NCBI GenBank assembly: GCA_012474735.1
Contig: GCA_012474735.1_4085.1
Origin: a phage
Reading direction: 5' to 3' (one strand)
Length of the DNA: 64,000 bases
Part shown: positions 1 to 17,191 of the stretch, piece by piece
How positions within the stretch are numbered: position 1 is the stretch's first letter
Layout: each line of letters begins with the position of its first letter
The notes under the pieces: model-generated
Databases searched by the model: none
Told to the model about the DNA's origin: nothing
Seen by the model: only the letters and a program-made list of their open reading frames with translations
Program-made: the position numbers and the translations under genes

Positions 1-201
1 GCAGTACTCCACGACATAGCACGATAGATATGGCCTTTAACTGGTTGCAATACTGGTAATGTTTTATGGTCTTCTACGTAGGCCATAGCTTGAGGATTTA
101 CCCGATATTGTGTGAACTGTTCCATTATGTTTCCCCTTGTAGTTAGTAAAGTTATTACATCAGTACTATCAAGCTATGTCAATAGTACTGAAATAAAACT
201 T

Positions 202-426
202 TTAGATTAGATTATTGATGCCGTTGATGGTAGACTCGCTTTCTTCTTTCTCCCATTGGCGGTAGTACTTCCATGCTTCATGATATGTGGCGATTAGTTC
301 ATCTTTTTGATCCTGAGTACATGCCAGTATTGAATCACGGTGAGCGGTGTTATAGATAGAATCGAATGATTTCTTCTCTTCTGCCAGGTTAGCTACTTCC
401 CGCATCAGTTCATCAAAGTTAGCCAT
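202..426 (-). CDS. hypothetical early protein (74 aa)
   Basis: ORF; SD AGGAG upstream; promoter unit 445..502. Confidence 0.55.
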   Translation of the reverse strand: MANFDELMREVANLAEEKKSFDSIYNTAHRDSILACTQDQKDELIATYHEAWKYYRQWEKEESESTINGINNLI

Positions 427-444
427 TTTATTACTCCTTTTAGT

Positions 445-502
445 GGGGGAGGATATCTCCCCCTATGCAAAACATTATACTTTGTTTTAGTTATTATGCA
501 AG
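445..502 (-). promoter_or_regulatory. sigma70-like early promoter plus 5' leader hairpin
   Basis: rc: CTTGCA-N17-TATAAT (497..502 / 474..479); hairpin GGGGGAG-N5-CTCCCCC 445..463. Confidence 0.6.
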
Positions 503-757
503 TACTTTTTTCATATAAAGATTATATTCTACACCGCCGTAACCTTCTACGATGATATGTTTTGCGTTATCACGTTTGCACATAGTGAAACCGTTGTTGA
601 TGTGTTCTGCATTTTCCAGGGCGACATCACCGATAGCGGCACATACGGCACTAATAACAGTATTCCGCAAAGTACTGGTATCATTAGCGGTCATAGTAGT
701 TTGCAGTACTACGTTGTCGTATACGTGTGCATTGATAGTGATTTCGATAGTGTTCAT
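494..757 (-). CDS. hypothetical early protein (87 aa)
   Basis: ORF; SD GGAG; promoter unit upstream. Confidence 0.55.
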   Translation of the reverse strand: MNTIEITINAHVYDNVVLQTTMTANDTSTLRNTVISAVCAAIGDVALENAEHINNGFTMCKRDNAKHIIVEGYGGVEYNLYMKKVLA

Positions 758-775
758 GGTGTATCTCCTGGACTG

Positions 776-837
776 GCGGGAGAACTATTCCCCCGATCTA
801 TGTAAAACATTATACGTTAATCTAACTACAATGCAAG
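776..837 (-). promoter_or_regulatory. sigma70-like early promoter plus leader hairpin
   Basis: rc CTTGCA 832..837, TATAAT 809..814, spacer 17; hairpin 776..795. Confidence 0.6.
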
Positions 838-843
838 TACTTT

Positions 844-1035
844 TTAAATTTTATTTCCGATATAGTCCGGTCTATTCTTTTCGGTCATACGCTTTGCTAA
901 TGTTTGCATATGGCTTATTGCGTTTAATGTGTCTTCCTCCAGGGATGAATCAACATAATCAGGATCATTCTTCACCTTGCAATGATTATGATAGCGTAGT
1001 ACTGCCAGTACTTTTTTAACTTCTTCTACTGTCAT
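844..1035 (-). CDS. hypothetical protein (63 aa)
   Basis: ORF; start overlaps stop of upstream gene (coupling). Confidence 0.5.
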   Translation of the reverse strand: MTVEEVKKVLAVLRYHNHCKVKNDPDYVDSSLEEDTLNAISHMQTLAKRMTEKNRPDYIGNKI

Positions 1036-1304
1036 AATAAGTACCCCACTTCGTTAGCTTTCAGGTTAGTATCAATCATCAGTGGATTTTTGTAGTTCAC
1101 AAAACGATTAGTTTTCTCGATAGCGAATCCCATATAATCCAGCTTACTAACAGTACATTCATTCTTAAAAACTTCTTTCGCTGCATCGATGGCTGATTGC
1201 ATGGATAACCGACCATCTAAATTAATGTTTCCAAATGATCCACCAGCAGAAGTAGGATTACCGTTCATATCTTTAATGATCATAGTAGCGGAGTAGCTGG
1301 ACAT
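1032..1304 (-). CDS. hypothetical protein (90 aa)
   Basis: ORF; promoter unit 1327..1385 upstream. Confidence 0.55.
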   Translation of the reverse strand: MSSYSATMIIKDMNGNPTSAGGSFGNINLDGRLSMQSAIDAAKEVFKNECTVSKLDYMGFAIEKTNRFVNYKNPLMIDTNLKANEVGYLL

Positions 1305-1326
1305 AATTTTGTTTCCTTTTAGTATC

Positions 1327-1385
1327 GGGGAGAACTATTCTCCCCTTGATGTAAACTATTATACAGTACTGATATACTTTGTCAA
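1327..1385 (-). promoter_or_regulatory. sigma70-like early promoter plus leader hairpin
   Basis: rc TTGACA 1380..1385, TATAAT 1358..1363; hairpin GGGGAGAA-N3-TTCTCCCC 1327..1345. Confidence 0.6.
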
Positions 1386-1388
1386 TAC

Positions 1389-1610
1389 TTAATTACGTTT
1401 AAAATGATATGTGCCTTTATCATCCTGTACGCCCCACACTGATTTACCATCAACACCAGTGAAACCGGATTGTAATTCAATATGGAAACCATTATTATCA
1501 ACTACAAAAACTTTTTTATTTTCATCCCGATAACATTGATATTCTGAATCAACATTAAAGGCCGCATCATTCAGAAGATTGGAAGCGTAAATGCAAGTCA
1601 TTGTAGTCAT
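1389..1610 (-). CDS. hypothetical protein (73 aa)
   Basis: track ORF trimmed to ATG at 1610; MFYIERGK extension is translated promoter/hairpin. Confidence 0.5.
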   Translation of the reverse strand: MTTMTCIYASNLLNDAAFNVDSEYQCYRDENKKVFVVDNNGFHIELQSGFTGVDGKSVWGVQDDKGTYHFKRN

Positions 1611-1628
1611 GATTTTATTCCTTATTGC

Positions 1629-1691
1629 CAGGGAGAACCATTTCCCCCTCTCGATATAAAACATTATACTTGATTCTAAGTACAATGCAAG
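1629..1691 (-). promoter_or_regulatory. sigma70-like early promoter plus leader hairpin
   Basis: rc CTTGCA 1686..1691, TATAAT 1663..1668, spacer 17. Confidence 0.6.
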
Positions 1692-1804
1692 TACTTTTTA
1701 TCAAATACTTTAAAATAGTTTTCAGTACTGAATACTTATATAATAGATACACTTATGCACCCTGTGGGTCAGTGAGTTATCTCTCAATGAATATATATTA
1801 GCAA

Positions 1805-1828
1805 AGGGACTGACCGGAGTCAATCCCT
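1805..1828 (-). terminator. intrinsic terminator hairpin
   Basis: AGGGACTGAC-CGGA-GTCAATCCCT inverted repeat with flanking T/A runs, downstream of 1842..2426. Confidence 0.5.
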
Positions 1829-1841
1829 TTTTTAATCTTTT

Positions 1842-2426
1842 TTATCGTGTTATAGTTACGGCTTTTACATCACGCTTTTTATAGTACTGATTCCAGATAT
1901 TGCGGGTTAAACCGTAATCAAGTACTTTAATAAGTCCATTACGATCCTGGCCGATATTCTGTTTTCTGATATCTCTTATCGTTAGTGTTGATAATGTATC
2001 ATCGACGTGTTGTAGTGCATCAGCAAAGCGGTGCTGGCGTTCAATGGCATTACGTTTAATATTGTACTTTAATTCGTTGCACGCGTTAACGTGCTTCACA
2101 CTGCCTTTACTTGCAGTACTCAACCGATCCATAACGATAAACATATTATCAGGATCGCATAAATGCATATGCACCTTTGCAAAGTACTGTTTCAATTGAG
2201 GGCGGTCATAGTCTAAAAAATTCCATACCTTACATTCAGTTTCATTTTGTTCTACACCCGCATCACAATTGGCGACCTTAATCACTAACCGATCATTTAA
2301 AGCGAATACGATACGGGAAGAACCCGCCCCGATGATCTCCAGGCCAGCTAACCGACAAGCTGAAAGGATCTCTTTGTTGGTTTCCATTTCTGACAGTGTA
2401 CGGATGAATTTAGTATAATTACGCAT
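1842..2426 (-). CDS. protein kinase-like protein
   Basis: VIKVA, DIRKQN and LDYG motifs resemble kinase beta3-Lys, catalytic loop and DFG; start set at ATG 2426 after AAGGAG. Confidence 0.45.
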   Translation of the reverse strand: MRNYTKFIRTLSEMETNKEILSACRLAGLEIIGAGSSRIVFALNDRLVIKVANCDAGVEQNETECKVWNFLDYDRPQLKQYFAKVHMHLCDPDNMFIVMDRLSTASKGSVKHVNACNELKYNIKRNAIERQHRFADALQHVDDTLSTLTIRDIRKQNIGQDRNGLIKVLDYGLTRNIWNQYYKKRDVKAVTITR

Positions 2427-2457
2427 TGCATGTTCTCCTTGAGTTAATGAAACTATC

Positions 2458-2700
2458 TTACAGTACTTTACTATCAATGGCAACCACTTTTTTCACACTA
2501 ACCGCGTGAATCACTTCCTTAGTGTTTTTAGTACTGAATACTTTCGCTGTTCCTTGTTCTACTGCAATGCGATAACGACCGTTAACATCAACCATATTAA
2601 TAAAGTCCGGTGTACTAAACCGAGTAGTACGGCATTTCAGTACTGTTAACAATTCCACCAGCGATGTAGTTTCTTTGATACGTTTTTCTAAAGTAATCAT
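2458..2700 (-). CDS. hypothetical protein (80 aa)
   Basis: ORF; TTGACA-containing promoter-like sequence upstream. Confidence 0.5.
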   Translation of the reverse strand: MITLEKRIKETTSLVELLTVLKCRTTRFSTPDFINMVDVNGRYRIAVEQGTAKVFSTKNTKEVIHAVSVKKVVAIDSKVL

Positions 2701-2758
2701 TTTGTTTTCCCCCGTGTTGGTATGTACATATAGTACTAAAACATTTGAGTACTGTCAA

Positions 2759-2978
2759 TTAGATAATTGCATATTTCTTTAAAGATAATGCGTCTTGGGT
2801 TGGCTGATACTCAATGCCGTTACCGTTATCTACTTTAACTAATAAACCTTTGTCAATTAGTTTTTTAATAGTCCTTTGGCCTTGTTGAAAATTGGTAAAA
2901 TGTGAATCATTACGAAAGGTATAACCGTGCTTAACTGCTTCATCAATAGTTTTCTTTTCGATTTTAGATAATTTCATT
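2759..2978 (-). CDS. hypothetical protein (73 aa)
   Basis: ORF trimmed to MKLSKIEKK start; SD GGGAGAAAC. Confidence 0.5.
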
Positions 2979-3030
2979 TTGTTTCTCCCGTGTTGGTATG
3001 TGTACATAATACTAAAACAATTGAGTACTG

Positions 3031-3285
3031 TCAACGTGATATTAGTTTTATTTTCTTATTATATTGTTGGTGTTCATATAGGTTTATCTTTCCTGTGTTC
3101 TCAATTACTATTCTGTTGTTAGTGTCTACATCGATTACACGCAGTTTTCCGTTGCTTAACTTCCTTGGTAATAGGTTACCATTAATAAACTCATTAGCAA
3201 GCTGTACGGCCTTTGTGATGATTCTCTGTGGTGCTTTATAGTGTACCCGCAAGATATTATCTTTAGATAGTTGTACCTTAATCAT
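3031..3285 (-). CDS. hypothetical protein (84 aa)
   Basis: ORF; SD AGGA. Confidence 0.5.
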   Translation of the reverse strand: MIKVQLSKDNILRVHYKAPQRIITKAVQLANEFINGNLLPRKLSNGKLRVIDVDTNNRIVIENTGKINLYEHQQYNKKIKLISR

Positions 3286-3306
3286 TTTAGTTTATCCTAT
3301 AAAAAA

Positions 3307-3325
3307 GGCGGGAACTGATCCCGCC
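3307..3325 (-). terminator. intrinsic terminator
   Basis: rc GGCGGGA-TCAGT-TCCCGCC followed by TTTTTT, just after stop of 3348..3743. Confidence 0.6.
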
Positions 3326-3347
3326 GTGTTGTTAGTACTGCAAGTTA

Positions 3348-3743
3348 TTAGATAACCTGGCGGCGTTTACTGTATACTGTTACACGATTACCCTTACGGT
3401 CGTGTCGGATCTCTTTCTGGTTGCGAACCAGTTCACTTGGACGCTTAAGGTTTGCCAGGTGATCCGCGTGAGTCCAAGCGGTATGGTTTGTCTGTACTTT
3501 GATATCAGAATCAGCGATAAATTCATCTTGTGCGTTAAGTACTGCCGCCAGTAAATCCGCTCGTTTTAGTTCTGCTGCTGTTAGTACTGGCTCCGGTGAA
3601 TTCACGATATCAGAGATTTCTTTGAACTGTACGGCCCAGCGTTGACCTTTCGGTGCATCTTTGCCCATGTCTTTAAATGCTGCTCCTTCCTCGCGTGCAA
3701 CAATACGGGCAGCTTCACGGGTAGCGTAGAATTTAGTAATCAT
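3348..3743 (-). CDS. hypothetical protein, paralog of 15779..16044
   Basis: shared FATRE-ARI-AR, FKDMG, DRKGNRVTVY motifs. Confidence 0.6.
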   Translation of the reverse strand: MITKFYATREAARIVAREEGAAFKDMGKDAPKGQRWAVQFKEISDIVNSPEPVLTAAELKRADLLAAVLNAQDEFIADSDIKVQTNHTAWTHADHLANLKRPSELVRNQKEIRHDRKGNRVTVYSKRRQVI

Positions 3744-3787
3744 GGTATACATCCTATTAGTTAAGTTAGTACTACAAGTTAGAGTCT

Positions 3788-3816
3788 ATTATAAAGTACT
3801 ATCTGGGCAATGTCAA
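3788..3816 (-). promoter_or_regulatory. sigma70 consensus promoter
   Basis: rc TTGACA-N17-TATAAT. Confidence 0.6.
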
Positions 3817-3838
3817 ATAGTACTTTAAATGGATTCTA

Positions 3839-4162
3839 TTACATGTCTTTCTTACGTTTTACATCGTAGTAGCGAACTGTTATTTCTTTGTTAATCTCTT
3901 TTTCGATGCGGTGAATAACTTTTTCTTTCGGGTTGAAACCTATAACGGTTTCTTTAATGATCTCCAAACCAGTGTATTCGCCTTGCGTACCGTAACCGTA
4001 TGTAAAGGTTTCATGTCCCAGGTCTTCCCAACGATCACCAATCAATGCAGACACGTAGCAAGAGTGGTAAGTATTGCCGTGTGAATCAGTCCACCGATTA
4101 ACTTTAATGTCAAAGGAGGTTACAATTTTCAGTTCTACTTTCTGGGTAAGGATCATAGCCAT
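3839..4162 (-). CDS. hypothetical protein, paralog of 10097..10420
   Basis: shared RWTDS-GNTYHSC and FTYGY motifs, both end VKRKKD; start trimmed. Confidence 0.6.
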   Translation of the reverse strand: MAMILTQKVELKIVTSFDIKVNRWTDSHGNTYHSCYVSALIGDRWEDLGHETFTYGYGTQGEYTGLEIIKETVIGFNPKEKVIHRIEKEINKEITVRYYDVKRKKDM

Positions 4163-4245
4163 TTTTATTTCTCTCTTTGTTAGGAGGGGAACCATTCCCC
4201 CCTTGATGTAAACTATTATACAGTACTAAGATACTTTGTCAATAC

Positions 4246-4521
4246 TTAATTATTATAAATGTCGTGAATAGTGATAAAGTTTTTACGACCGTAAACCTGC
4301 AAATCAATATCAATGTAGTGCTTATCAAGTACATCCTCGACGCTTAACGCGGTGTCGTGAATATCTTCGTAGAATTGAGGATCTACAATCTTGCTTAAGT
4401 CATCCGGCGTTAACTTATCGTTAAGCAGTTGAACCGCCTGGATATCTGCTTCACGTTTCCAGTCTTCCAGGTTAGTAGTCAGTACTTGTTCGATTTCGTT
4501 AGCTGTCAGTAGAATCCGCAT
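4246..4521 (-). CDS. hypothetical protein (91 aa)
   Basis: ORF behind tandem promoter/leader module. Confidence 0.55.
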   Translation of the reverse strand: MRILLTANEIEQVLTTNLEDWKREADIQAVQLLNDKLTPDDLSKIVDPQFYEDIHDTALSVEDVLDKHYIDIDLQVYGRKNFITIHDIYNN

Positions 4522-4554
4522 TTTAATGTTTCCTTATCAGTGGTTGATGTAAGT

Positions 4555-4699
4555 ATTATACTCGTTTACTTTCTATTGTCAAACTATTTTATCAGGGGAG
4601 TTTTTCGTATGTCTTACTCCTGGACTACTTAACGGGGTTACTTGTTTCGTTCCCCGTCCTGATGTAAAACATTATACTTGATTCTAAGTACAATGCAAG
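4555..4699 (-). promoter_or_regulatory. tandem sigma70-like promoters flanking a conserved structured leader
   Basis: P-a rc TTGACA-N16-TATAAT 4555..4582; P-b 4671..4699; 70-nt leader 4590..4660; near-identical copy at 15068..15214. Confidence 0.55.
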
Positions 4700-4807
4700 T
4701 ACTTTTTAAAAATAGTTTTCAGTACTTGATAGTACTAGCCACCAGCAAACAATAGATACATTTATGCACCCTGTGGGCTAGATTGTTTCAATGCATATAT
4801 AATAGCA

Positions 4808-4831
4808 AAGGGACTGACCGGAGTCAATCCC
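4808..4831 (-). terminator. terminator-like hairpin
   Basis: same AGGGACTGACCGGAGTCAATCCCT element as 1805..1828. Confidence 0.45.
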
Positions 4832-5271
4832 TTTTTCAATTATTTTTAAACTTGTTTTGGGTTGCGATATGTGATAGCGTTCGGGTACATTTGTTTAATG
4901 TTATTCCATGCCTGGTTAACATTGTAACCACTTGAGCGAATCAGTTGGTTACTACCGACACCTTGAAACACTACTTCGAATAAGAATTCTTTCATGCTTT
5001 CACCTCGCGATCTGCTTTACCTTTACGCCAGGACATTACTAATTGTTCGCGTTGCCATAAATCGAGTGATACAAAAAGTTTTGCGGTATCACTTTTAGGA
5101 TACTCGCCAGTAGTACCTAACCGATAAAACAGATCTTTCAGTACTGATAATTCTACTTGAATCATTTTATTACTCCTGATTGCGTTAATACTTCTACTAT
5201 TGCATGAATGATCATAAGTACAGCTAAAACAATAATCATCGGATTCATTTGCATAAGCTGTACTCCTTATA

Positions 5272-5501: not shown

Positions 5502-5561
5502 GGGGAGAATCATTTCTCCCCTTCATGTAACTTATTATACAGTACTAGATTACATTGTCAA
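5502..5561 (-). promoter_or_regulatory. sigma70-like early promoter plus leader hairpin
   Basis: rc TTGACA 5556..5561, TATAAT 5534..5539; hairpin GGGGAGAA-N4-TTCTCCCC 5502..5521. Confidence 0.6.
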
Positions 5562-5567
5562 TAGTTT

Positions 5568-6113: not shown

Positions 6114-6185
6114 TTCCTCTTAGTAGGGGAAGATGTTTCCCCTTGATGTAAGTACTATAACAGTACTGAAAACTAAATGCAAGTA

Positions 6186-8235: not shown

Positions 8236-8295
8236 GGGGAGAATCATTTCTCCCCTTCATGTAACTTATTATACAGTACTATAATCTATTGTCAA
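8236..8295 (-). promoter_or_regulatory. sigma70-like early promoter plus leader hairpin
   Basis: near-identical to unit 5502..5561. Confidence 0.6.
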
Positions 8296-8653: not shown

Positions 8654-8674
8654 GATTCGTTTCCTTATTACTAG

Positions 8675-8734
8675 GGGAAACCGTTTCCCCTTGCGATGTA
8701 AAACATTATACGCTTATTGAGATAGTTTGCAAGT
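8675..8734 (-). promoter_or_regulatory. sigma70-like early promoter plus leader hairpin
   Basis: rc CTTGCA 8729..8734, TATAAT 8706..8711; hairpin GGGGAAA-CCG-TTTCCCC. Confidence 0.6.
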
Positions 8735-9270: not shown

Positions 9271-9330
9271 GGGGAGAACCATTTCCCCCCTCTATGTAAA
9301 ACATTATACGCCTTTTTACAGTACTGTCAA
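9271..9330 (-). promoter_or_regulatory. sigma70-like early promoter plus leader hairpin
   Basis: rc TTGACA 9325..9330, TATAAT 9303..9308; hairpin 9271..9290. Confidence 0.6.
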
Positions 9331-10741: not shown

Positions 10742-10802
10742 GGGGAGAATCATTTCTCCCCTTGATGTAATGTATTATACTTTATTCGATTTACTTTGCA
10801 AG
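10742..10802 (-). promoter_or_regulatory. sigma70-like early promoter plus leader hairpin
   Basis: rc CTTGCA 10797..10802, TATAAT 10774..10779; hairpin 10742..10761. Confidence 0.6.
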
Positions 10803-11057: not shown

Positions 11058-11122
11058 TGGAAGGAGAACCGTTTCCCCCTCTCGATGTAAAACATTATAC
11101 GCTAATCTCTTAATCGTGCAAG
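11058..11122 (-). promoter_or_regulatory. sigma70-like early promoter plus leader hairpin
   Basis: rc CTTGCA 11117..11122, TATAAT 11094..11099. Confidence 0.6.
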
Positions 11123-11806: not shown

Positions 11807-11859
11807 TTTATAAATCCTCAATTAAAGTTTAGTTTACGTTTATTAGTGTATCAAAGTTT

Positions 11860-11975
11860 TATCGACGTGTCCAGTTTTTCGTTCGACTTACTGGCGGTCT
11901 ACTTAGTGCTCCCCGTCTTGATGTAATACATTCTACGCTTTTCTGCGGTAATGTCAACTACTTTTTTTAAAACTA
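11860..11975 (-). promoter_or_regulatory. diverged copy of structured leader plus promoter
   Basis: rc TTGACA-N17-TAGAAT; leader shares ACGAAAAACU loop hairpin with 4590..4660. Confidence 0.4.
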
Positions 11976-12029: not shown

Positions 12030-12047
12030 TAGTGATTCAGTACTAGA

Positions 12048-12347
12048 TTATAAACAGTTAATTACTCCGGTGTGCGTTACTTTCTCAGTATCCATTACAG
12101 TGACCGAACCGCGTTTAGTACTTACATCGTAATAAATTGTCGTGCTACCTTTTTCGTCTTCTTCATGGAACGGGCCGCTTTTAAATGCTTCTGGCTGGAT
12201 CTCTAAATCCTTTAAAACAATCTCGCCAGTACTTTCATCTGTCATCGCAACAGTACACTGAATGAATTTTTCACTAGGTACATCTAACGACGCGTTAACA
12301 GCGAAAGAGGAAACAGATAAAGCCAGGGCGATGATTGCAATTTTCAT
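12048..12347 (-). CDS. secreted/periplasmic hypothetical protein
   Basis: N-terminal signal-peptide-like MKIAIIALALSVSSFAVNA. Confidence 0.55.
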   Translation of the reverse strand: MKIAIIALALSVSSFAVNASLDVPSEKFIQCTVAMTDESTGEIVLKDLEIQPEAFKSGPFHEEDEKGSTTIYYDVSTKRGSVTVMDTEKVTHTGVINCL

Positions 12348-12367
12348 TTGATTATCCTTAGTTACCA

Positions 12368-12427
12368 GGGGGGAACCGCTCCCCCTTGCGATGTAAAATA
12401 TTATACAGTACTAAAAACTATTATCAA
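12368..12427 (-). promoter_or_regulatory. early promoter plus leader hairpin
   Basis: rc TTGATA-N16-TATAAT; hairpin GGGGG-AACCGC-TCCCCC. Confidence 0.5.
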
Positions 12428-12432
12428 GTACT

Positions 12433-12669
12433 TTATGATTTTTTATAAAACATTTCAGCAGTGATATTTTTACCCGTTGGCTGTACTTTATCCAGAATTT
12501 TTTGATGTCCTGGCCGTCCAAATGAATATGATCCGTAAACAGTAAACCAGTAGTTACCCTCAGTGTTTACATGTACAGCACAATAGGGAACGCCCCGCGA
12601 TTCATCACTAGTAAAGTGTGCTACCGTTCCCGTTACATTCGAAGACGTTGATTTGATTTGTTCGACCAT
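12433..12669 (-). CDS. hypothetical protein (78 aa)
   Basis: ORF; promoter unit 12691..12745. Confidence 0.55.
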   Translation of the reverse strand: MVEQIKSTSSNVTGTVAHFTSDESRGVPYCAVHVNTEGNYWFTVYGSYSFGRPGHQKILDKVQPTGKNITAEMFYKKS

Positions 12670-12690
12670 TTTCTTATTCCTTAGTTACCA

Positions 12691-12745
12691 GGGGAACCGC
12701 TCCCCCTATGCAAAACATTATACGCGTTTAAAAACTAATTGCAAG
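12691..12745 (-). promoter_or_regulatory. sigma70-like early promoter plus leader hairpin
   Basis: rc CTTGCA 12740..12745, TATAAT 12717..12722. Confidence 0.6.
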
Positions 12746-12781
12746 TATTTTAATAAAAAGTATTTGAAAAATAGTTGTTGA

Positions 12782-12810
12782 CAAGTGCATCCAGTACTGG
12801 CATAATTACT
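12782..12810 (+). promoter_or_regulatory. plus-strand promoter-like element
   Basis: TTGACA-N17-CATAAT, spacer contains CCAGTACTGG; followed at about +25 by CCCACAGGGTGCA motif. Confidence 0.4.
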
Positions 12811-12888
12811 ACATAAAGACGATACAGTCACTAACCCACAGGGTGCATAGATCCGTCTATTAAATGATTCAGTACTGAAAAAGTAACG

Positions 12889-12909
12889 GGGAGTTATTAT
12901 CTCCCCGCG
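12889..12909 (-). terminator. terminator hairpin
   Basis: CGGGGAG-N7-CTCCCCG with T-rich flank, after stop of 12913..13134. Confidence 0.5.
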
Positions 12910-12912
12910 TTG

Positions 12913-13134
12913 TTATTTGGTAAGGTATAAACAGAAGTCACCTTTATTTGCTACGCCGCCAGTGTAACGCGATGAATAGTTAGAAATATCTTGTACTTCT
13001 GCTATTACCAGTGTATCATCATTCATTTCGTCGCAGAAGCAAACGGCTGGATCTTTTACGCCGATATTGTCGGCATGTTCCCGCATAGATTTAACCAGTG
13101 CTTCCAGTTGAGAAAGAGTAGTGATATTAGCCAT
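12913..13134 (-). CDS. hypothetical protein (73 aa)
   Basis: trimmed to MANITTLS start. Confidence 0.5.
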   Translation of the reverse strand: MANITTLSQLEALVKSMREHADNIGVKDPAVCFCDEMNDDTLVIAEVQDISNYSSRYTGGVANKGDFCLYLTK

Positions 13135-13153
13135 TGTATTTTCCTCATTACCA

Positions 13154-13213
13154 GGGAGAACCATTTCTCCCCTCTATGTAAACTATTATACAGTACTGAA
13201 AACTAATTGCAAG
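13154..13213 (-). promoter_or_regulatory. sigma70-like early promoter plus leader hairpin
   Basis: rc TTGCAA 13207..13212, TATAAT 13185..13190. Confidence 0.6.
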
Positions 13214-13219
13214 TACTTT

Positions 13220-13408
13220 TTAATTAAATTCCATAAAATCATTCTCAACGTGCACTACAATCTGATTATTTTTAAAGTCCGCAGCGAACTCAATGCAATC
13301 ATATACTGCTTTTTCTGTTACCATGCTATGAGTACCAATCGGATTAATAGGGGATTGAATTGTTTCAATCTCGTTACCTTGTTCATTAACAATTAAAATA
13401 TTAAACAT
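13220..13408 (-). CDS. hypothetical protein (62 aa)
   Basis: ORF. Confidence 0.5.
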   Translation of the reverse strand: MFNILIVNEQGNEIETIQSPINPIGTHSMVTEKAVYDCIEFAADFKNNQIVVHVENDFMEFN

Positions 13409-13456
13409 CGCTGTTACTCCTGATAGTGTTTACCTGATATAAAGTATTATACGCCT

Positions 13457-13705
13457 TTATTGCTTAGTGTCCAGTACTTTTAAAACATAATCAAAGACAC
13501 CACGCACATCATTGATCATCGCCTGGCGGTTAGCAGGTAACGCATCAGGATCGCCACTATCCCAGGCATTGATAAAACTCCCCAAATCATGATAGATTTT
13601 ATTCTGTAAGCCGATTAACTGTAATTCTTTTTCTTCAAGCTCTTTGATGCGGTCGATTAAATCACTCATTAGATAATCCTCAGTACTTAACTGTAAGATC
13701 CGCAA
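13457..13705 (-). CDS. hypothetical protein (82 aa)
   Basis: ORF; overlaps upstream gene end. Confidence 0.5.
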   Translation of the reverse strand: MRILQLSTEDYLMSDLIDRIKELEEKELQLIGLQNKIYHDLGSFINAWDSGDPDALPANRQAMINDVRGVFDYVLKVLDTKQ

Positions 13706-13971
13706 CGGTCGCAGTAGTGCCCGTCATCGTCATCGTCAACGAATTGACCGACGAAATGATCTACTTTCGCTTTCAGGTTATTATAATCGTTTTCTACTTC
13801 CTTTAAACGCTTCTGGTAGTATTCCAGGGCTTGTAAATACGCCGCCTCAGCAGTTTTCTCCCGCATAGCTAAATTCATTCCACGCGATTCATCATACAGC
13901 CAAAAACCATCGGTGCACTGGCTAATAGATAATGACTTGCTTAGTACTGTATAGTTAATTACTTTACCCAT
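13687..13971 (-). CDS. hypothetical protein (94 aa)
   Basis: ORF; promoter unit 13990..14050. Confidence 0.55.
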   Translation of the reverse strand: MGKVINYTVLSKSLSISQCTDGFWLYDESRGMNLAMREKTAEAAYLQALEYYQKRLKEVENDYNNLKAKVDHFVGQFVDDDDDGHYCDRCGSYS

Positions 13972-13989
13972 TAGATAATCCTCAGTAAA

Positions 13990-14050
13990 GGCGGGAACTA
14001 TTCCCCGCCTCGATATAAAGTATTATACGTTAATCTAACTACAATGCAAG
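13990..14050 (-). promoter_or_regulatory. sigma70-like early promoter plus leader hairpin
   Basis: rc CTTGCA 14045..14050, TATAAT 14022..14027; hairpin GGCGGGAA-N4-TCCCCGCC. Confidence 0.6.
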
Positions 14051-14063
14051 TACTTTTTAAATT

Positions 14064-14330
14064 TTATAATCCTTTTACTGCATCAGGTGCGACTACTCCA
14101 TCAATGTATTGAACATCGTTTTCAACTTCACGGGCGGCATCATTCAGCAGATCAAAATTAAATTCCATTTCTTCCAGATCATCGAAATCAGGCTCATAAC
14201 CATTAATTGTTGAATAAGTCCAAGTACCTTTTTCATAAGTTACGACACTTACATCAGGGAAGAAATCTTGCACATGATCCATCGCATCCCGAACCAATTG
14301 ATGTGCAGTTGTGATATTTAAAGTTTTCAT
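14064..14330 (-). CDS. hypothetical acidic protein (88 aa)
   Basis: ORF; promoter unit 14351..14411. Confidence 0.55.
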   Translation of the reverse strand: MKTLNITTAHQLVRDAMDHVQDFFPDVSVVTYEKGTWTYSTINGYEPDFDDLEEMEFNFDLLNDAAREVENDVQYIDGVVAPDAVKGL

Positions 14331-14350
14331 TTTGTTGCCCTTTTAGTGTG

Positions 14351-14411
14351 AGCGGGGAACCACTCCCCGCCTCGATGTAAAGTATTATACGCTTTTAAAC
14401 TTAGTTTGCAA
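14351..14411 (-). promoter_or_regulatory. sigma70-like early promoter plus leader hairpin
   Basis: rc CTTGCA 14406..14411, TATAAT 14383..14388; hairpin GCGGGGAA-N3-CTCCCCGC. Confidence 0.6.
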
Positions 14412-14423
14412 GTACTTTTTAAA

Positions 14424-15035
14424 TTAATATGCGATTGATTCTACTACGCCATCAATAACATTGAATTGATATTCGTTACCCTCAATCAGTGCCGTAATGT
14501 TTTCAGTAGTGAATTGATCCTCATATGCATTCTCTAAATCACGGTACAACTTGCGGGATAATTCACGAATAGTTTCAGTGAGTAGTTCCTCAAGCTCATT
14601 AACTAACGTTTCTTGTTTTGCGGTTAAATCAGTGTAAGCCGATTCAATGTACCCGCTTACAGTATTCTCATGCGAGTAGTGGGAGTGAGAACGCTTTACA
14701 CTCATCGCCAAATCATCTTCATTCAGCAAGTGACGGATTGAGCGATACTTAGTTAATGCTCTTACCTTGCGTAAAAACTTCACTGCGTCAACGTGGTCAG
14801 TACTGATTGATGCACCGTCACCCTGGGACCAAAAACCACTGAATTGTATTTCAGCGTCATTAATGCCATATTCCGGTAGTACTGTTTCTTTATAGTATTC
14901 AATTTCACTTTCAGAAAAATAATTGTCGTTTGAGTTTTTTTCACGTTCCCGAACCAGTTCGATAGCCGCCGCTTGTTGTTCTGCGTTCAGTTCAGAAAAA
15001 GCCATAACGAAAGTAGTAGTAGTGATAGTTTTCAT
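14424..15035 (-). CDS. hypothetical protein (203 aa)
   Basis: ORF behind tandem promoter/leader module. Confidence 0.55.
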   Translation of the reverse strand: MKTITTTTFVMAFSELNAEQQAAAIELVREREKNSNDNYFSESEIEYYKETVLPEYGINDAEIQFSGFWSQGDGASISTDHVDAVKFLRKVRALTKYRSIRHLLNEDDLAMSVKRSHSHYSHENTVSGYIESAYTDLTAKQETLVNELEELLTETIRELSRKLYRDLENAYEDQFTTENITALIEGNEYQFNVIDGVVESIAY

Positions 15036-15067
15036 TTTGTAACCCTCATTCAGTAGTTTATGTAAGT

Positions 15068-15214
15068 ATTATACGCTTTTAAAAACATTTGTCAAACTAT
15101 TTTATCAGGGGAGTTTTTCGTGTGCCTTACTCCTGGGCTACTTAACGGGGAGTTACTTATTTCGTTCCCCGTCCTGATGTAAAACATTATACGCCTTTAA
15201 ACATAGTTTGCAAG
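15068..15214 (-). promoter_or_regulatory. tandem promoters flanking structured leader (copy 2)
   Basis: near-identical to 4555..4699; P-a 15068..15095, leader 15103..15173, P-b 15186..15214. Confidence 0.55.
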
Positions 15215-15257
15215 TACTTTTTAAAAATAGTTTTCAGTACTGAATAGTAAAAAGGTA

Positions 15258-15286
15258 TTGACAGCACTATCCAGTACTGGCATAAT
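15258..15286 (+). promoter_or_regulatory. plus-strand promoter-like element
   Basis: TTGACA-N17-CATAAT; convergent with minus promoter 15392..15420. Confidence 0.4.
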
Positions 15287-15391
15287 ATACCCCATGACAA
15301 CAGCTAACCCACCGGGTGCACAATTGTAACTGTACTAAACTAATTTTTCTATAGATACACTTCCGCACCCTATGGGCCACGGCTTATCTGC

Positions 15392-15420
15392 CAATGAATA
15401 CATTATGCCAGTACTGACAT
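15392..15420 (-). promoter_or_regulatory. minus-strand promoter-like element
   Basis: rc TTGACT-N17-CATAAT; mirror of 15258..15286. Confidence 0.4.
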
Positions 15421-15460
15421 TTTAAGTCAATACCGGCAATTGTAAATATTTGTAAACTAC

Positions 15461-15691
15461 TTATACTGCAATCGCGTCCAGGCTATAATAATAATAAGTG
15501 CCGTATTGGTGTACTTTATTACCTTTTATTTCAGTACTGAATGAATCCGAACGGTTTGCATATGATGTTAATTTAAAGTACTTTGATTTGCTGATACGTT
15601 GCCATACACCACAGATCCGCTGTAAGTAAGTAGTTTTATTCGTGGTAGTATCTTTTACGGTTTTAACTTCAGTCATATACATATTAGTCAT
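15461..15691 (-). CDS. hypothetical protein (76 aa)
   Basis: ORF; promoter unit 15713..15772. Confidence 0.5.
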   Translation of the reverse strand: MTNMYMTEVKTVKDTTTNKTTYLQRICGVWQRISKSKYFKLTSYANRSDSFSTEIKGNKVHQYGTYYYYSLDAIAV

Positions 15692-15712
15692 TTTTATTAC
15701 TCCAGGTTATAG

Positions 15713-15772
15713 GCGGGAAGAGTTCCCGCTCTCGATGTAAAACATTATACGCCTTTAAACATAGTTTGCAAG
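15713..15772 (-). promoter_or_regulatory. sigma70-like early promoter plus leader hairpin
   Basis: rc CTTGCA 15767..15772, TATAAT 15744..15749; hairpin GCGGGAA-GAG-TTCCCGC. Confidence 0.6.
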
Positions 15773-15778
15773 TACTTT

Positions 15779-16044
15779 TTATTCAAGTACTGCAATCTTT
15801 TTAGTACGGTACACGGTCACGCGGTTGCCCTTTCGGTCGAGCTTTATTTCTACCACTCGACGCGATACACTATCGGGACTTTTTAAGGCCGCTAACCAGT
15901 ACTGTAATGATCTGGCGGTACTACGCTTTACAATGGCCCAACGTTTACCACGTTCCGATTGTACGCCCATATCTTTAAACGTTGCCCCGTCCTGGCGTGC
16001 GGCGATCCGAGCTTGTTCACGCGTCGCAAAATACTTAATATTCA
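15779..16044 (-). CDS. hypothetical protein, paralog of 3348..3743
   Basis: trimmed to MNIKYFATRE start; shared motifs. Confidence 0.6.
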
Positions 16045-16133
16045 TGCTGTTGCCCTTATCGTTGGTGTATGAATAAAACACTATTATAAAGTACTATCCC
16101 CGTGCAATAGTACTTTAAATAAATTCTATTCTA

Positions 16134-16373
16134 TTACATTCCAACCATTGCCGCACGGATCGCAGTAGTGCTATATTTGAATCCGTCCGGTGTTTTATCT
16201 TGTCCAGTCTGTTCTAAAAATAACATCATATGACGGGCCGCATCATTGCGATTAGTGCTATCGTTAATAAAGTCCTGGGCCAACCGGTATAATGATTCAT
16301 CGTTATTAATCCAAAGGCTTACATTCCAATGAGTTTTGTTTTTGTGACCTAAGAACATTTTTGATTTAGCCAT
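16134..16373 (-). CDS. hypothetical protein (79 aa)
   Basis: ORF; promoter unit 16394..16452. Confidence 0.55.
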   Translation of the reverse strand: MAKSKMFLGHKNKTHWNVSLWINNDESLYRLAQDFINDSTNRNDAARHMMLFLEQTGQDKTPDGFKYSTTAIRAAMVGM

Positions 16374-16393
16374 TTTTTAATCCTCTTATATAG

Positions 16394-16452
16394 TGGGGAA
16401 CTATTCCCCACCTGATAGAAAGTATTATACTTGTTTTAACTTAGTATGCAAG
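16394..16452 (-). promoter_or_regulatory. sigma70-like early promoter plus leader hairpin
   Basis: rc CTTGCA 16447..16452, TATAAT 16424..16429; hairpin GTGGGGAA-N3-TTCCCCAC. Confidence 0.6.
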
Positions 16453-16465
16453 TACTTTATTAAAC

Positions 16466-16828
16466 TTATTTGTAAATTTTGCCACTGTCAGCCCATACCA
16501 GGAAACGATGCATATTATCCCATGCATCTTGTTTTAAATTTAAACCGTGCAATTCCTCAGTAGTTGCCATCCCTGGTACTGGCTTACTACACACCGCGAA
16601 ATTTTCGCCCATGTACTGATAAACCATCGTTAAATCATTTGAGATCATTATATGGATCATTGAATCAAGCATCAAAGTAGCGGCGTATTGTTCACGCTTA
16701 AGCGGCAACATTGCAATAAGTTCCCGATAAGCTGCAATGTGAATTTTTACAGTTTCAGCCGGAAGACCTTTCATCTCTTCGCGGAAGTTTACCAGGTTAA
16801 GCATGATTTTAGTGATTTGAGTCGCCAT
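16466..16828 (-). CDS. hypothetical protein (120 aa)
   Basis: trimmed to MATQITKIM start. Confidence 0.5.
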   Translation of the reverse strand: MATQITKIMLNLVNFREEMKGLPAETVKIHIAAYRELIAMLPLKREQYAATLMLDSMIHIMISNDLTMVYQYMGENFAVCSKPVPGMATTEELHGLNLKQDAWDNMHRFLVWADSGKIYK

Positions 16829-16852
16829 CGTTTTAATCTCTCTTAATGTGTA

Positions 16853-16912
16853 GCGGGAAGTGTTCCCGCTCTCGATGTAAAACATTATACGCTTTTATCA
16901 GTACGGTGCAAG
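16853..16912 (-). promoter_or_regulatory. sigma70-like early promoter plus leader hairpin
   Basis: rc CTTGCA 16907..16912, TATAAT 16884..16889; hairpin GCGGGAA-GTG-TTCCCGC. Confidence 0.6.
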
Positions 16913-17191
16913 TACTTTCTACAAATACTTTTAAAATAGTTTTCTTTCTATATAGGGGAACTATTATTCAGTACTGCAACCATCCAGGGGAACTATCTTT
17001 CTATATAGGAGTACTATTATTCAGTACTGAATCAATCAACCAAATCACTACTACACCCCGTAAAACGGCCTCAGACGCATTCTAACGCATTAATACACCC
17101 AAGCTATACATTTGCACCATTCCAATCATTCCAGGGCTTTACAGGCCGTTTAAACGCGTTAAATTATTTTCAATTATTTTGTTTTTAGCTA

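What the first reader, a model, noticed from the sequence alone, without database searches (positions are those of the whole stretch)
1..17000. Early-gene block: consensus promoter followed by a 5' leader hairpin that shows covariation
At least 19 small genes are each preceded on the minus strand by a near-consensus promoter and, a few nt after the predicted start site, a G-rich/C-rich hairpin with no U-tract, so it is not a terminator. Stem sequences differ between copies with compensatory changes (GGGGAGAA/TTCTCCCC, GCGGGGAA/CTCCCCGC, GTGGGGAA/TTCCCCAC, GCGGGAA/TTCCCGC), which argues for a selected structure. Possible roles are 5'-end mRNA stabilisation, a processing or regulator site (many stems contain GGAG), or a PeSL-like recombination module.
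Basis: partly seen in the sequence, partly recalled or inferred. Interest (0 to 1): 0.65.

Follow-up and report, generated by a model that had tools for sequence, protein, structure and literature searches.

The report
Promoter plus leader-hairpin cassettes, jumbo phage
The early genes in the terminal repeat of this jumbo E. coli phage are driven by a repeated promoter cassette whose transcript starts with a small RNA hairpin; the hairpin is kept intact by selection, probably protects or insulates the message, and resembles the known promoter/stem-loop cassettes of T4-like phages.

Summary
Window 1-17000 is most of the ~21-kb direct terminal repeat of an Asteriusvirus (PBECO4/121Q-type jumbo coliphage). 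On the minus strand, 20 of about 33 sigma-70-type promoters are followed, 8-14 nt after TATAAT, by a hairpin with a 7-10 bp stem and a 3-5 nt loop. The 5' arm is G-rich and the 3' arm C/T-rich. No T tract follows. After 16-23 unpaired nt come the Shine-Dalgarno sequence (SD) and ATG.

An unbiased census finds 30 GC-rich hairpins on this strand against 5.8 +/- 1.9 in shuffles, and 20 of them sit in this leader position. Across six Asteriusvirus genomes there are 104 copies (53 distinct). They are 96.7% paired, and 4 of 8 pairs show changes on both sides. Across nine loci, 53 G.U wobbles stand against 2 A.C mismatches on the transcribed strand, so selection acts on the RNA.

RaK2, rV5-like and phAPEC8-like phages have the same layout with unrelated stems. 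Homology breakpoints between phages cluster at the cassettes, as with the PeSL cassettes of T4-like phages.

The function is inferred only. I favour a passive 5'-leader structure that shields the mRNA end and masks an SD-like purine tract. I reject a terminator and a loop-specific protein site. This is a new variant of a known kind, of moderate interest.

The parts
16852..16911 (-). cassette p16911: TTGCAC-16-TATAAT, 13 nt, AGCGGGAA cac TTCCCGCT
16392..16451 (-). cassette p16451: TTGCAT-16-TATAAT, GGTGGGGAA tag TTCCCCACT
15713..15771 (-). cassette p15771: TTGCAA-16-TATAAT, GCGGGAA ctc TTCCCGC
14351..14411 (-). cassette p14411: GGCGGGGAG tgg TTCCCCGCT (one G.U)
13988..14049 (-). cassette p14049: GAGGCGGGGA atag TTCCCGCCTT; the G17 orthologue is annotated as an ARNOLD terminator; in three other phages the same gene has the hairpin without a promoter
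13153..13212 (-). cassette p13212: GGGGAGAA atgg TTCTCCCT
12689..12744 (-). cassette p12744: TAGGGGGA gcgg TTCCCCTG (stem starts 8 nt after the -10)
12369..12427 (-). cassette p12427: GGGGGAG cgg TTCCCCC
11060..11121 (-). cassette p11121: GAGGGGGAA acgg TTCTCCTTC (G.U pairs)
10742..10801 (-). cassette p10801: GGGGAGAA atga TTCTCCCC
9271..9330 (-). cassette p9330: TTGACA-16-TATAAT, GGGGGGAA atgg TTCTCCCC (G.U where orthologues have A-U)
8673..8732 (-). cassette p8732: AGGGGAAA cgg TTTCCCCT
8236..8295 (-). cassette p8295: TTGACA-16-TATAAT, GGGGAGAA atga TTCTCCCC
6125..6182 (-). cassette p6182: TTGCAT-17-TATAGT, AGGGGAA acatc TTCCCCT
5502..5561 (-). cassette p5561: TTGACA-16-TATAAT, GGGGAGAA atga TTCTCCCC
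4184..4242 (-). cassette p4242: GGGGGGAA tgg TTCCCCTC
1630..1690 (-). cassette p1690: AGGGGGAA atgg TTCTCCCT
1327..1385 (-). cassette p1385: GGGGAGAA tag TTCTCCCC
777..836 (-). cassette p836: CGGGGGAA tag TTCTCCCG
445..501 (-). cassette p501: GGGGGAG atatc CTCCCCC
15096..15213 (-). promoter with a long (~80 nt) structured leader whose first six nt (AUCAGG) pair with CCUGAU downstream; a second promoter (15095) follows
4583..4698 (-). second copy of the long structured leader
11840..11957 (-). divergent third copy of the long leader; the 5'-terminal closing helix is kept through a change on both sides
44357..44413 (-). outside the block: perfect-consensus promoter followed, 10 nt after the -10, by an unrelated hairpin GGGATGA acttc TCATCCC
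18084..18151 (-). first promoter inside the genome end: perfect consensus, then AGATGAGTTG ctgcgaa CAATTCATTT; no obvious ORF

Best explanation
Window 1 to about 18500 is the direct terminal repeat of an Asteriusvirus, the block that holds its host-takeover (pre-early/early) ORFans.

Twenty of its host-RNA-polymerase promoters are copies of one expression cassette of about 100 bp, counted from the A-rich tract to the start codon. In order, the cassette holds:
- an A-rich upstream tract;
- a -35 box (TTGCAn or TTGACA);
- a 16-bp spacer;
- TATAAT;
- a conserved start region (..TTTAC|ATCGAG..);
- a 7-10 bp hairpin at roughly +5 to +27 of the transcript;
- an unstructured A-rich stretch with the Shine-Dalgarno sequence (SD) and ATG.

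The hairpin works as RNA. Selection keeps it paired on the transcribed strand and tolerates G.U pairs, and neither its loop nor most of its stem sequence matters.

I propose that it is a passive cis-acting leader element with two effects. (i) It leaves only a short unpaired 5' tail, so attack on the mRNA that depends on its 5' end (RppH, then RNase E) is reduced. (ii) It locks away a purine tract that is more SD-like than the real SD, together with its anti-SD-like partner, so the genuine ribosome site stays open whichever ORFan sits behind the cassette.

Because the cassette is repeated some 30 times and is shared with other coliphage families, it also supplies the homology at which gene cassettes are swapped, as PeSLs do.

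Shown: anatomy, excess over chance, RNA-strand-specific conservation of pairing, absence of terminator features, breakpoints at the cassettes, cross-family occurrence. Inferred: promoter activity, the start site, and every functional effect of the hairpin.
For: Identity and place:
- 90-97% DNA identity to Asteriusvirus genomes.
- The homologous stretch of vB_Ec-M-J is annotated as a 21,525-bp direct terminal repeat. The repeat of fEgEco12 was confirmed by restriction digests (PMC13070987).

Anatomy and chance.

Folding: every one of the 20 leaders folds into the single hairpin (-10.6 to -16.7 kcal/mol; z from -0.3 to -3.8, all negative). SD and AUG are unpaired in 20/20. The minimum-energy structures leave 1-6 unpaired nt at the 5' end.

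Covariation:
- 104 copies, 53 distinct, 96.7% paired against 88.6% in shuffles (0/500); 4 of 8 pairs have changes on both sides.
- 39 distinct hairpins in six genomes.
- Unrelated stems in the same position in RaK2, A73 and nepoznato and in IMG/VR contigs.

RNA level: 53 G.U against 2 A.C on the transcribed strand.

Start site: YA at positions 7-8 after the -10 in 83-85 of 87 leaders. T7 A1 has the same spacing and the same ATCGAGAG, with its annotated start there. T7 A1 and A2 transcripts also fold from +1 or +2.

The long-leader variant pairs its first six nucleotides, and the divergent copy keeps this through a compensatory change.

Outside leaders and T-tract terminators there are only three to five GC-rich hairpins on this strand: three unrelated ones, plus the two hairpins that overlap a -35 box. 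None precedes an internal, promoter-less cistron.

The 5' arm binds the anti-SD at -8.5 kcal/mol on average, against -5.8 for the true SD regions and -0.7 for background. An AUG sits in or at the loop in 7/20.

Shuffling:
- 19 of 38 homology-breakpoint clusters fall in promoter cassettes against 19% expected, P about 2e-5.
- Cassettes are swapped in front of the same gene.
- Cassettes and ORFans are shared with Vequintavirinae and Stephanstirmvirinae phages at 78-89% identity.
Against: - No start-site, half-life or expression data exist for any of these phages.
- If the start is at position 8, the commonest unpaired 5' tail before the main stem is 5 nt, with a range of 1-7 nt. From my own recollection of the ompA and RppH literature, protection needs about 4 nt or fewer.
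- RNase E readily steps over a simple stem-loop when scanning (PMC9943677). The hairpin therefore cannot act as a scanning obstacle.
- About nine promoters of the same block manage without a hairpin.
- Individual folding z-scores are modest.
- The covariation alignment was fitted to the model and the hairpin finder favours G.U over mismatches.
- Transcription-associated C-to-T mutation on the non-template strand could account for part of the G.U excess.
- Most differences between true orthologues are one-sided (G.U versus A-U or G-C) or are whole-cassette swaps. The double changes are therefore seen mainly between paralogous copies.
Confidence: 0.45

Rival explanations
1. PeSL-type attenuator or 3'-end barrier. 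The hairpin acts on read-through transcripts from the upstream gene. It either stops or pauses RNA polymerase, or it protects the upstream mRNA from 3' exonucleases after cleavage in the A-rich ribosome-site region. Its presence in the promoter's own transcript is incidental.
For: - PeSL stem-loops of RB49/phi1 are Gn-loop-Cn and were reported to reduce downstream lacZ like a strong terminator (PMC2839356).
- True terminators of this block use the same stem family: GGCGGGA..TCCCGCC+T6 at 3325-3307 and GCGGGGAG..CTCCCCGT at 12908-12886.
- In three phages the p14049 orthologue is a hairpin without a promoter, followed by TTTATT.
- G17's annotators labelled one leader hairpin a terminator.
Against: - No T tract after any of the 20; the tails are A-rich.
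- The position is fixed 8-14 nt after the -10 and never upstream of the -35, which a terminator or 3' barrier would not require.
- A terminator there would also stop the cassette's own transcripts.
Confidence: 0.15
2. Transcription-level role. The purine-rich start region, like those of T7 A1 and T5 N25, helps RNA polymerase escape from near-consensus promoters. The hairpin that forms behind the polymerase prevents backtracking or R-loop formation at very heavily transcribed units. This might matter if transcription helps to draw the genome end into the cell, as in T7.
For: - +1..+8 is identical to T7 A1.
- Purine fraction of +1..+15 is 0.78 in hairpin promoters against 0.58 in hairpin-less ones.
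- The polarity is strict: the purine arm is always 5', with 52 G.U against 1 U.G.
- All promoters point inward from the physical genome end.
Against: - The stem is complete only at about +27, so it forms after promoter escape.
- The hairpin-less promoters are just as close to consensus.
- No data on escape or backtracking here; the link between purine-rich start regions and escape is from my memory of the T5 N25 literature, not tested.
Confidence: 0.13
3. Recognition site for a trans-acting factor, either a phage or host RNA-binding protein or a nuclease. The factor would time the shut-off of early messages or mark them as 'self' while host mRNA is degraded.
For: - The base of the stem is conserved as GGG(R)/(Y)CCC in Asteriusvirus and RaK2, and the top as GAA..UUC within Asteriusvirus.
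- GGAG, the T4 RegB target (my recollection), is in 9/20 arms.
- The block encodes many ORFans of unknown function; only a GNAT acetyltransferase, a DksA/TraR zinc finger and a weak kinase-like match are recognisable.
Against: - At least 18 different loops of 3-6 nt, and stems that are unrelated in rV5-like and phAPEC8-like phages and at 44413.
- The stems are too short for RNase III (my knowledge of its substrates).
- GGAG is absent from 11/20 arms and is base-paired where present.
- No boxA/boxB-like conserved element and no Rfam match.
Confidence: 0.12
4. DNA-level element only. The inverted repeat is a recombination or template-switch hotspot (cruciform or quasi-palindrome) that spreads with the cassette, and the RNA hairpin has no function.
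For: - Breakpoints at cassettes and cassette swaps.
- One loop inversion, cac to gtg, between orthologues, as hairpin-mediated inversion would give.
- Recombination within the loop was documented for PeSL mini-circles (PMC2839356).
Against: - 53 G.U against 2 A.C mismatches on the transcribed strand. A DNA hairpin has no reason to prefer G.T on one strand.
- Strict purine-arm-first polarity and a fixed distance from the -10.
- Breakpoints are as frequent at hairpin-less promoters: 8 against 11 clusters at equal coverage. The promoter homology is therefore enough, and the palindrome is not needed.
Confidence: 0.05
5. Neutral passenger. The hairpin is a relic, for example of a former terminator, that hitch-hikes in a recently amplified cassette.
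For: Several copies are identical or nearly so (p10801, p8295, p5561), which shows recent duplication or gene conversion.
Against: - 39 distinct hairpins all stay paired.
- Unrelated stems sit in the same place in four phage groups.
- Hairpin excess over shuffles.
Confidence: 0.05

Closest known systems
PeSLs (promoter-early stem-loops) of T4-like phages RB49/phi1, PST/T4 and nt-1/KVP40 (Arbiol et al. 2010, PMC2839356; Comeau et al. 2014, PMC4122927)
   Same: - A strong sigma-70-type promoter with an AT-rich upstream tract, plus a G-run/C-run stem-loop, with SD and start codon at the 3' end.
- Dense in ORFan-rich plastic regions.
- Sits at insertion, deletion and replacement breakpoints between close relatives.
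   Different: [quoted passage not shown] Here it is uniformly inside the transcript, at about +5 to +27.
- PeSL stem-loops are described as terminators. Here there is no T tract, and the strand-specific G.U pattern points to a leader-RNA role.
- The host genomes are Rak2-like jumbo phages (in the terminal repeat) and rV5-like and phAPEC8-like phages, not T4-like phages.
5'-terminal stem-loop mRNA stabilisers: E. coli ompA leader hairpin hp1 and the phage T7 gene 10 (phi10) leader GGGAGACC..GGUUUCCC (from my own knowledge of Belasco-lab and Mertens et al. work; not re-read here)
   Same: A sequence-independent small hairpin near the 5' end of an mRNA, followed by an open ribosome site. In T7 phi10 the purine arm is also 5' and the pyrimidine arm 3'.
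   Different: - Those hairpins start within about 0-4 nt of the 5' end. Here the predicted tail is 1-7 nt, most often 5, and the start is not mapped.
- No half-life data here.
Phage T7 early promoters A1 and A2 (RefSeq NC_001604)
   Same: - A1 has the same distance from the -10 to the start (8th nt) and an identical +1..+8 ATCGAGAG.
- A1 and A2 transcripts are predicted to fold from +2 and +1.
   Different: - T7 has three such promoters in front of one long RNase III-processed transcript, not one per gene.
- The A1 stem is interrupted and longer.
- I know of no assigned function for it.
Intrinsic (Rho-independent) terminators
   Same: A GC-rich stem of similar size and sequence family; genuine examples lie in the same block.
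   Different: No U tract, and placed after a promoter instead of after a gene.
Promoter-proximal antitermination RNAs (lambda nut/boxB, HK022 put)
   Same: An RNA stem-loop encoded just downstream of early promoters.
   Different: - nut and put have conserved loop or box sequences and, for put, two large stem-loops (PMC9378689 is listed; the details are from my own knowledge).
- Here the loops are free to vary, there is one small hairpin, and there is one per gene.

Membership tests
PeSL (promoter-early stem-loop cassettes) | Near-consensus sigma-70-type early promoter with an AT-rich tract upstream of the -35 | tested here: met
   TTGACA or TTGCAn, 16 bp, TATAAT, preceded by aaaaagtac/aatag tracts
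PeSL (promoter-early stem-loop cassettes) | Adjacent stable stem-loop, often a G run followed by a C run | tested here: met
   7-10 bp stems, -10.6 to -16.7 kcal/mol
PeSL (promoter-early stem-loop cassettes) | Stem-loop placed within, over or upstream of the promoter boxes, or just before the start site (the five published subclasses) | tested here: not met
   All 20 stems begin 8-14 nt after the -10, that is after the predicted start at position 8. The published positions are from PMC2839356 and PMC4122927. Start sites are not mapped in either system.
PeSL (promoter-early stem-loop cassettes) | Stem-loop is an effective transcription terminator or attenuator | not testable with these tools
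   The sequence argues against it: there is no T tract, unlike the real terminators nearby.
PeSL (promoter-early stem-loop cassettes) | Concentrated in ORFan-rich plastic regions and at insertion, deletion or replacement junctions between close relatives | tested here: met
   Only 33-67% of the block aligns between relatives that are 90-97% identical. 19 of 38 breakpoint clusters fall in promoter cassettes, P about 2e-5. Cassettes are swapped in front of the same gene.
PeSL (promoter-early stem-loop cassettes) | Recombination between neighbouring cassettes yields mini-circles | not testable with these tools
   Needs inverse PCR on infected cells or virions.
5'-terminal stem-loop mRNA stabiliser | Stem-loop within a few (about 4 or fewer) unpaired nt of the mRNA 5' end | tested here: inconclusive
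   Minimum-energy structures leave 1-6 unpaired nt. The distance from predicted start to the main stem is 1-7 nt, with a mode of 5. The start is inferred, not mapped.
5'-terminal stem-loop mRNA stabiliser | Structure, not sequence, is what is conserved | tested here: met
5'-terminal stem-loop mRNA stabiliser | Lengthens mRNA half-life in an RNase E/RppH-dependent way | not testable with these tools
   Needs rifampicin-chase experiments.
Intrinsic terminator | GC-rich hairpin immediately followed by a U tract | tested here: not met
   None of the 20 has 5 or more T in the 9 nt after the stem or passes the terminator scan.
nut/boxB- or put-type antitermination RNA | Conserved loop or box sequence recognised by a factor or by RNA polymerase | tested here: not met
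   Loops vary freely (tag, atgg, atga, cgg, cac, ctc, tgg, acatc, atatc, aaac...). No Rfam hit at E of 1 or below other than chance-level matches.

The most novel reading that the evidence does not exclude
The leader hairpin is an active signal and not a passive structure. It would be a shared 'early-message tag' used by several unrelated families of virulent coliphages (Asteriusvirus, Alcyoneusvirus, Vequintavirinae, Stephanstirmvirinae). A host or phage factor would read the tag by shape plus the G-rich base of the stem. It could exempt pre-early transcripts from phage-induced mRNA decay, or time their shut-off. The tag would travel horizontally with the promoter-ORFan cassettes.
Probability: 0.1. 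Interest if true: 0.75.

Novelty: new variant of a known kind. Interest (0 to 1): 0.45.

Why it matters
Composite promoter/stem-loop cassettes (PeSLs) have been treated as promoter-terminator units and as recombination linkers of T4-like phages. This array shows the same kind of cassette in a different lineage, in the terminal repeat that carries the first-expressed genes. Here the stem-loop lies inside the transcript and carries a strand-specific signature of selection on RNA.

That gives a clean, testable case for what such stem-loops do for expression, whether stability, insulation of the ribosome site, or something else. It also shows that promoter-leader-ORFan units are exchanged between unrelated coliphage families.

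In practice the cassettes are compact, strong, context-independent expression units. Genome annotators should not label these hairpins as terminators.

Tried and rejected
- Intrinsic terminator: rejected. No T tracts, while real terminators in the block have them.
- Known RNA family: no Rfam match; only three chance-level hits at E 0.13-0.71.
- RNase E scanning obstacle: I considered that the hairpin blocks RNase E scanning from the 5' end. I dropped this after reading that RNase E readily bypasses orthogonal stem-loops (PMC9943677).
- GGAG/RegB-type cleavage site: not general, 9/20 arms.
- Switch between the hairpin and pairing of the 3' arm with the SD: the alternative pairing is only about 5 bp on the RNA strand, and the SD is free in all 20 minimum-energy folds.
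- MAFFT alignments of the cassettes put gaps inside the stems and were unusable for pair counting. I used equal-layout seeds and a covariance model instead.
- CMSTMSU (L004) was dropped because its record shows homopolymer errors.
- The IMG/VR pattern scan added little beyond the known jumbo phages.
- Literature searches found no start-site or transcriptome data for Asteriusvirus, RaK2-like or rV5-like phages, and no description of these hairpins.
- I did not scan RB49/phi1 myself. The comparison with PeSL geometry rests on the papers' text.

Full report
**What the region is.** Window 1-17000 matches Asteriusvirus genomes (PBECO4, 121Q, G17, slurp01, E9.1, fEgEco12, vB_Ec-M-J) at 90-97% identity, but only 33-67% of it aligns with any one of them, in 5-14 pieces. 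In vB_Ec-M-J the homologous DNA is annotated as a 21,525-bp direct terminal repeat. Its genes read inward from about 1.7 kb inside the left physical end. The ~21-kb repeat of fEgEco12 was confirmed by restriction digests (PMC13070987). By homology, the genome end falls near window 18516. The block therefore holds most of the terminal repeat. It consists of small ORFans, plus a GNAT acetyltransferase, a DksA/TraR zinc-finger protein and a weak kinase-like match.

**Checking the observation.** I read the minus strand and scanned it. This gives 20 units with one layout:
- -35 box TTGCAn or TTGACA;
- 16-bp spacer (17 bp once);
- TATAAT;
- 8-14 nt of conserved start region (typically gTTTTACATCGAG or aGTTTACATCAA);
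- a 7-10 bp stem whose 5' arm is G/A-rich and whose 3' arm is C/T-rich;
- a 3-5 nt loop;
- 11-23 nt (16-23 in 19 of the 20) that are A-rich and contain the Shine-Dalgarno sequence (SD);
- ATG.

Eleven promoters in 1-19000 match the consensus 12/12, and all are on the minus strand.

A census that ignores promoters (stem of at least 7 bp, at least 4 G-C pairs, loop of 3-7 nt) finds 30 hairpins on the minus strand, against 5.8 +/- 1.9 in shuffles. Twenty of them are exactly these leader hairpins. Five are followed by a T tract, and two of the remaining five are the hairpins that overlap a -35 box and are followed by a T-rich tail; these seven are terminator-like. Three are other hairpins.

A covariance model built from nine copies recovers all 20 on the minus strand, at E-values from 2e-11 to about 1 for the weakest copies. 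It finds nothing comparable in the other 47 kb of the window.

Three more promoters (15213, 4698, 11957) have a longer structured leader. About nine have none.

**Is the structure selected, and at what level?** The model finds 104 copies (53 distinct) in six Asteriusvirus genomes. In these copies 96.7% of cells are paired, against 88.6% when the 3' letters are shuffled (0/500 shuffles reach the observed value) and at most 79% when the partners are slid. Four of eight pairs show changes on both sides, for example G-C/A-U/G.U at two positions and G-C/C-G at one.

My own promoter-anchored scan, which does not use the model, finds 122 cassettes with 39 distinct hairpins, all paired.

Over nine loci, and allowing one internal mismatch, 87 distinct leaders hold 53 G.U pairs against 2 A.C mismatches on the transcribed strand. 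On the other strand those G.U pairs would be A.C. Pairing is therefore maintained for the transcript, not for DNA.

Caveats:
- the model-fitted alignment leans towards the structure;
- my scoring favours G.U over mismatches;
- C-to-T mutation on the non-template strand could contribute to the G.U excess;
- between true orthologues most changes are one-sided or are whole-cassette swaps.

**Same layout, other stems, other phages.** In RaK2 (Alcyoneusvirus), 11 of 45 early promoters are followed at the same distance by stems such as GGGGATACA/TGTATCCCT, GGGAATGAA/TTCATTCCC, GGAGATTCCA/TGGAATCTCC and AGGAGGT/ACCTCCT. The rV5-like phage A73 and the phAPEC8-like phage nepoznato have GGGCGGCA/TGCCGCTC and GGCGGCA/TGCCGCC. 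IMG/VR contigs add further variants. A perfect-consensus promoter at window 44413 carries GGGATGA/TCATCCC.

**Is the hairpin in the transcript?** Position 7 after the -10 is a pyrimidine in 85/87 leaders, and position 8 is A in 83/87. T7 promoter A1 has its RefSeq-annotated start at the 8th nt after its -10, and its transcript begins ATCGAGAGGG. This is identical over +1..+8 to many cassettes here. With that start, the hairpin occupies about +5 to +27.

All 20 leaders fold into this single hairpin (-10.6 to -16.7 kcal/mol; z from -0.3 to -3.8). They leave 1-6 unpaired nt at the 5' end, and SD and AUG are open in 20/20.

T7 A1 and A2 leaders are also predicted to pair from +2 and +1. The long-leader variant here pairs its first six nucleotides with a segment about 75 nt downstream. 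The divergent third copy keeps that helix through a change on both sides.

**What it is not.**
- Not an intrinsic terminator. No T tract follows any of the 20, while the true terminators of the block (3325-3307, 12030-12009, 11302-11281, 12908-12886) have them.
- Not a known RNA family.
- Not a loop-specific protein site, because the loops vary freely.
- GGAG is present in only 9/20 arms, and it is paired there.
- Not an obstacle to RNase E scanning. RNase E is reported to bypass orthogonal stem-loops readily (PMC9943677).

**What it most likely does (inference).** The hairpin is tied to promoters. No G-rich/C-rich hairpin precedes any promoter-less internal cistron. The census finds only three hairpins on this strand that are neither leader nor terminator-like: one lies inside a coding region and two are unrelated intergenic hairpins without a consensus promoter. 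The hairpin's distance from the -10 is tightly constrained. This points to a role at or near the mRNA 5' end and argues against a general role in translation.

The 5' arm is a purine tract that would pair with the anti-SD of 16S rRNA better than the real SDs do (mean -8.5 against -5.8 kcal/mol; background -0.7). In 7/20 an AUG sits in or at the loop. The 3' arm neutralises this decoy.

I therefore favour a passive leader element that (i) shortens the accessible 5' tail and so hinders decay that depends on the 5' end, and (ii) masks an SD-like tract and its anti-SD-like partner, keeping the true ribosome site open whatever gene follows.

The 5-nt modal tail is the main weakness of (i). The existence of hairpin-less promoters is the main weakness of both.

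**DNA-level consequence.** Ends of homology between this window and five relatives form 38 clusters. Nineteen fall within promoter cassettes +/- 10 nt (19% expected; P about 2e-5), and most of the rest lie just outside them. The same gene is found behind different cassettes in different phages (p11121, p10801, p6182, p836). Hairpin-less promoters are hit as often as hairpin promoters (8 against 11 clusters at equal coverage). The repeated promoter, and not the palindrome, therefore seems to supply the homology.

The cassette itself matches A73 and W70 at 88.6% over 70 nt, and RaK2 at 76.6%. Several ORFans of the block occur in A73 and nepoznato at 74-86% nucleotide identity, in a different order.

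**Comparison with what is known.** The closest described system is the PeSL of T4-like phages: promoter, G/C stem-loop, SD and ATG, lying in plastic regions and at insertion/deletion junctions (PMC2839356, PMC4122927). The differences are the position of the stem-loop (inside the transcript here; within, over, upstream of, or just before the start there), the lack of terminator features, the RNA-strand signature, and the host lineage and genomic place.

I found no description of these hairpins in papers on Asteriusvirus, CBB, PA5oct or rV5. The G17 record labels one of them as a predicted terminator.

**Verdict.** This is a new variant of a known kind, its function is still inferred, and it is of moderate interest.

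Noticed in passing
whole window; densest in 16950-18800: AGTACT occurs 274 times against 21.7 expected (12.6-fold; 20-fold in 1-19000). No other 6-bp palindrome exceeds 2.5-fold. It is the core of a longer palindrome, ATTCAGTACTGAAT, which fills the non-coding stretch next to the physical genome end and also sits in promoter spacers and at the upstream edge of the -35 box. It may be a binding site for an unknown protein.
   Followed up: partly
window 8765-8829(-), 4727-4791(-), 1731-1795(-), 7090-7154(-), 15330-15394(-), 17285-17336(-), 12814-12878(+), 15294-15358(+); L008 (RaK2), six copies: A conserved motif, RRCCCAC-AGGGTGC-N6-TGTATCTAT, lies about 25-35 nt after its own promoter and is preceded by a short hairpin that varies between copies. 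It occurs in both orientations (a convergent pair at 15294-15394) and is conserved between Asteriusvirus and RaK2. It has no ORF and no Rfam match. It could be a small-RNA family or a DNA site.
   Followed up: partly
window 15096-15213, 4583-4698, 11840-11957 (-); L007 11868-12048: A structured non-coding leader of about 80 nt sits between two tandem promoters. The rV5-like phage A73 shares it at 84-89% identity. Its first six nucleotides pair with a distal segment.
   Followed up: partly
window 8845-8872, 4807-4834, 1804-1830 (-): A 12-bp hairpin, AAAGGGATTGAC tccg GTCAGTCCCTTT, contains a -35 box (TTGACT) and is followed by a T-rich tail and TATTAT. This is a composite terminator/promoter of the classic PeSL type, with the stem-loop over the -35. 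It drives the conserved motif described in the previous item.
   Followed up: no
window 4245-4497, 7940-8229, 10722-11100, 12442-12681, 16134-16386 against L007; 16134-16408 against L009: Early ORFans of this jumbo phage occur at 78-86% nucleotide identity, in a different order, in a Vequintavirinae phage (A73). One occurs at 85% in a Stephanstirmvirinae phage (nepoznato). These lineages appear to share a pool of promoter-ORFan cassettes.
   Followed up: partly
window 16852-16870 against L005 (PBECO4): The orthologous hairpin differs only by an inverted loop: AGCGGGAA cac TTCCCGCT against AGCGGGAA gtg TTCCCGCT. Inversion of the whole palindrome would give this.
   Followed up: no
window 16950-18516: About 1.5 kb of non-coding, repeat-rich DNA lies between the genome end and the first early gene. 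Repeats include TACGCCCAAAATCC (3 copies), TAGCCGTCT..CCAGAC (3), GGGGTAATTG (2) and TGATTAC (4). It contains outward- and inward-facing consensus promoters, including a perfect one at 18151 with no ORF.
   Followed up: no
L004 (MH494197, phage CMSTMSU): The record shows systematic shortening of G and C runs in the hairpins and has sparse ORF calls. This is consistent with homopolymer sequencing errors, so it was excluded from the comparisons.
   Followed up: no
L006 1-7000 (phage Turkey3), beyond the window's left edge: Downstream of the promoter-rich block lies a run of about 30 tightly packed genes of about 70 codons. Their stops and starts overlap and they have no individual promoters. This contrasts sharply with the one-promoter-per-gene layout of the block.
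   Followed up: no
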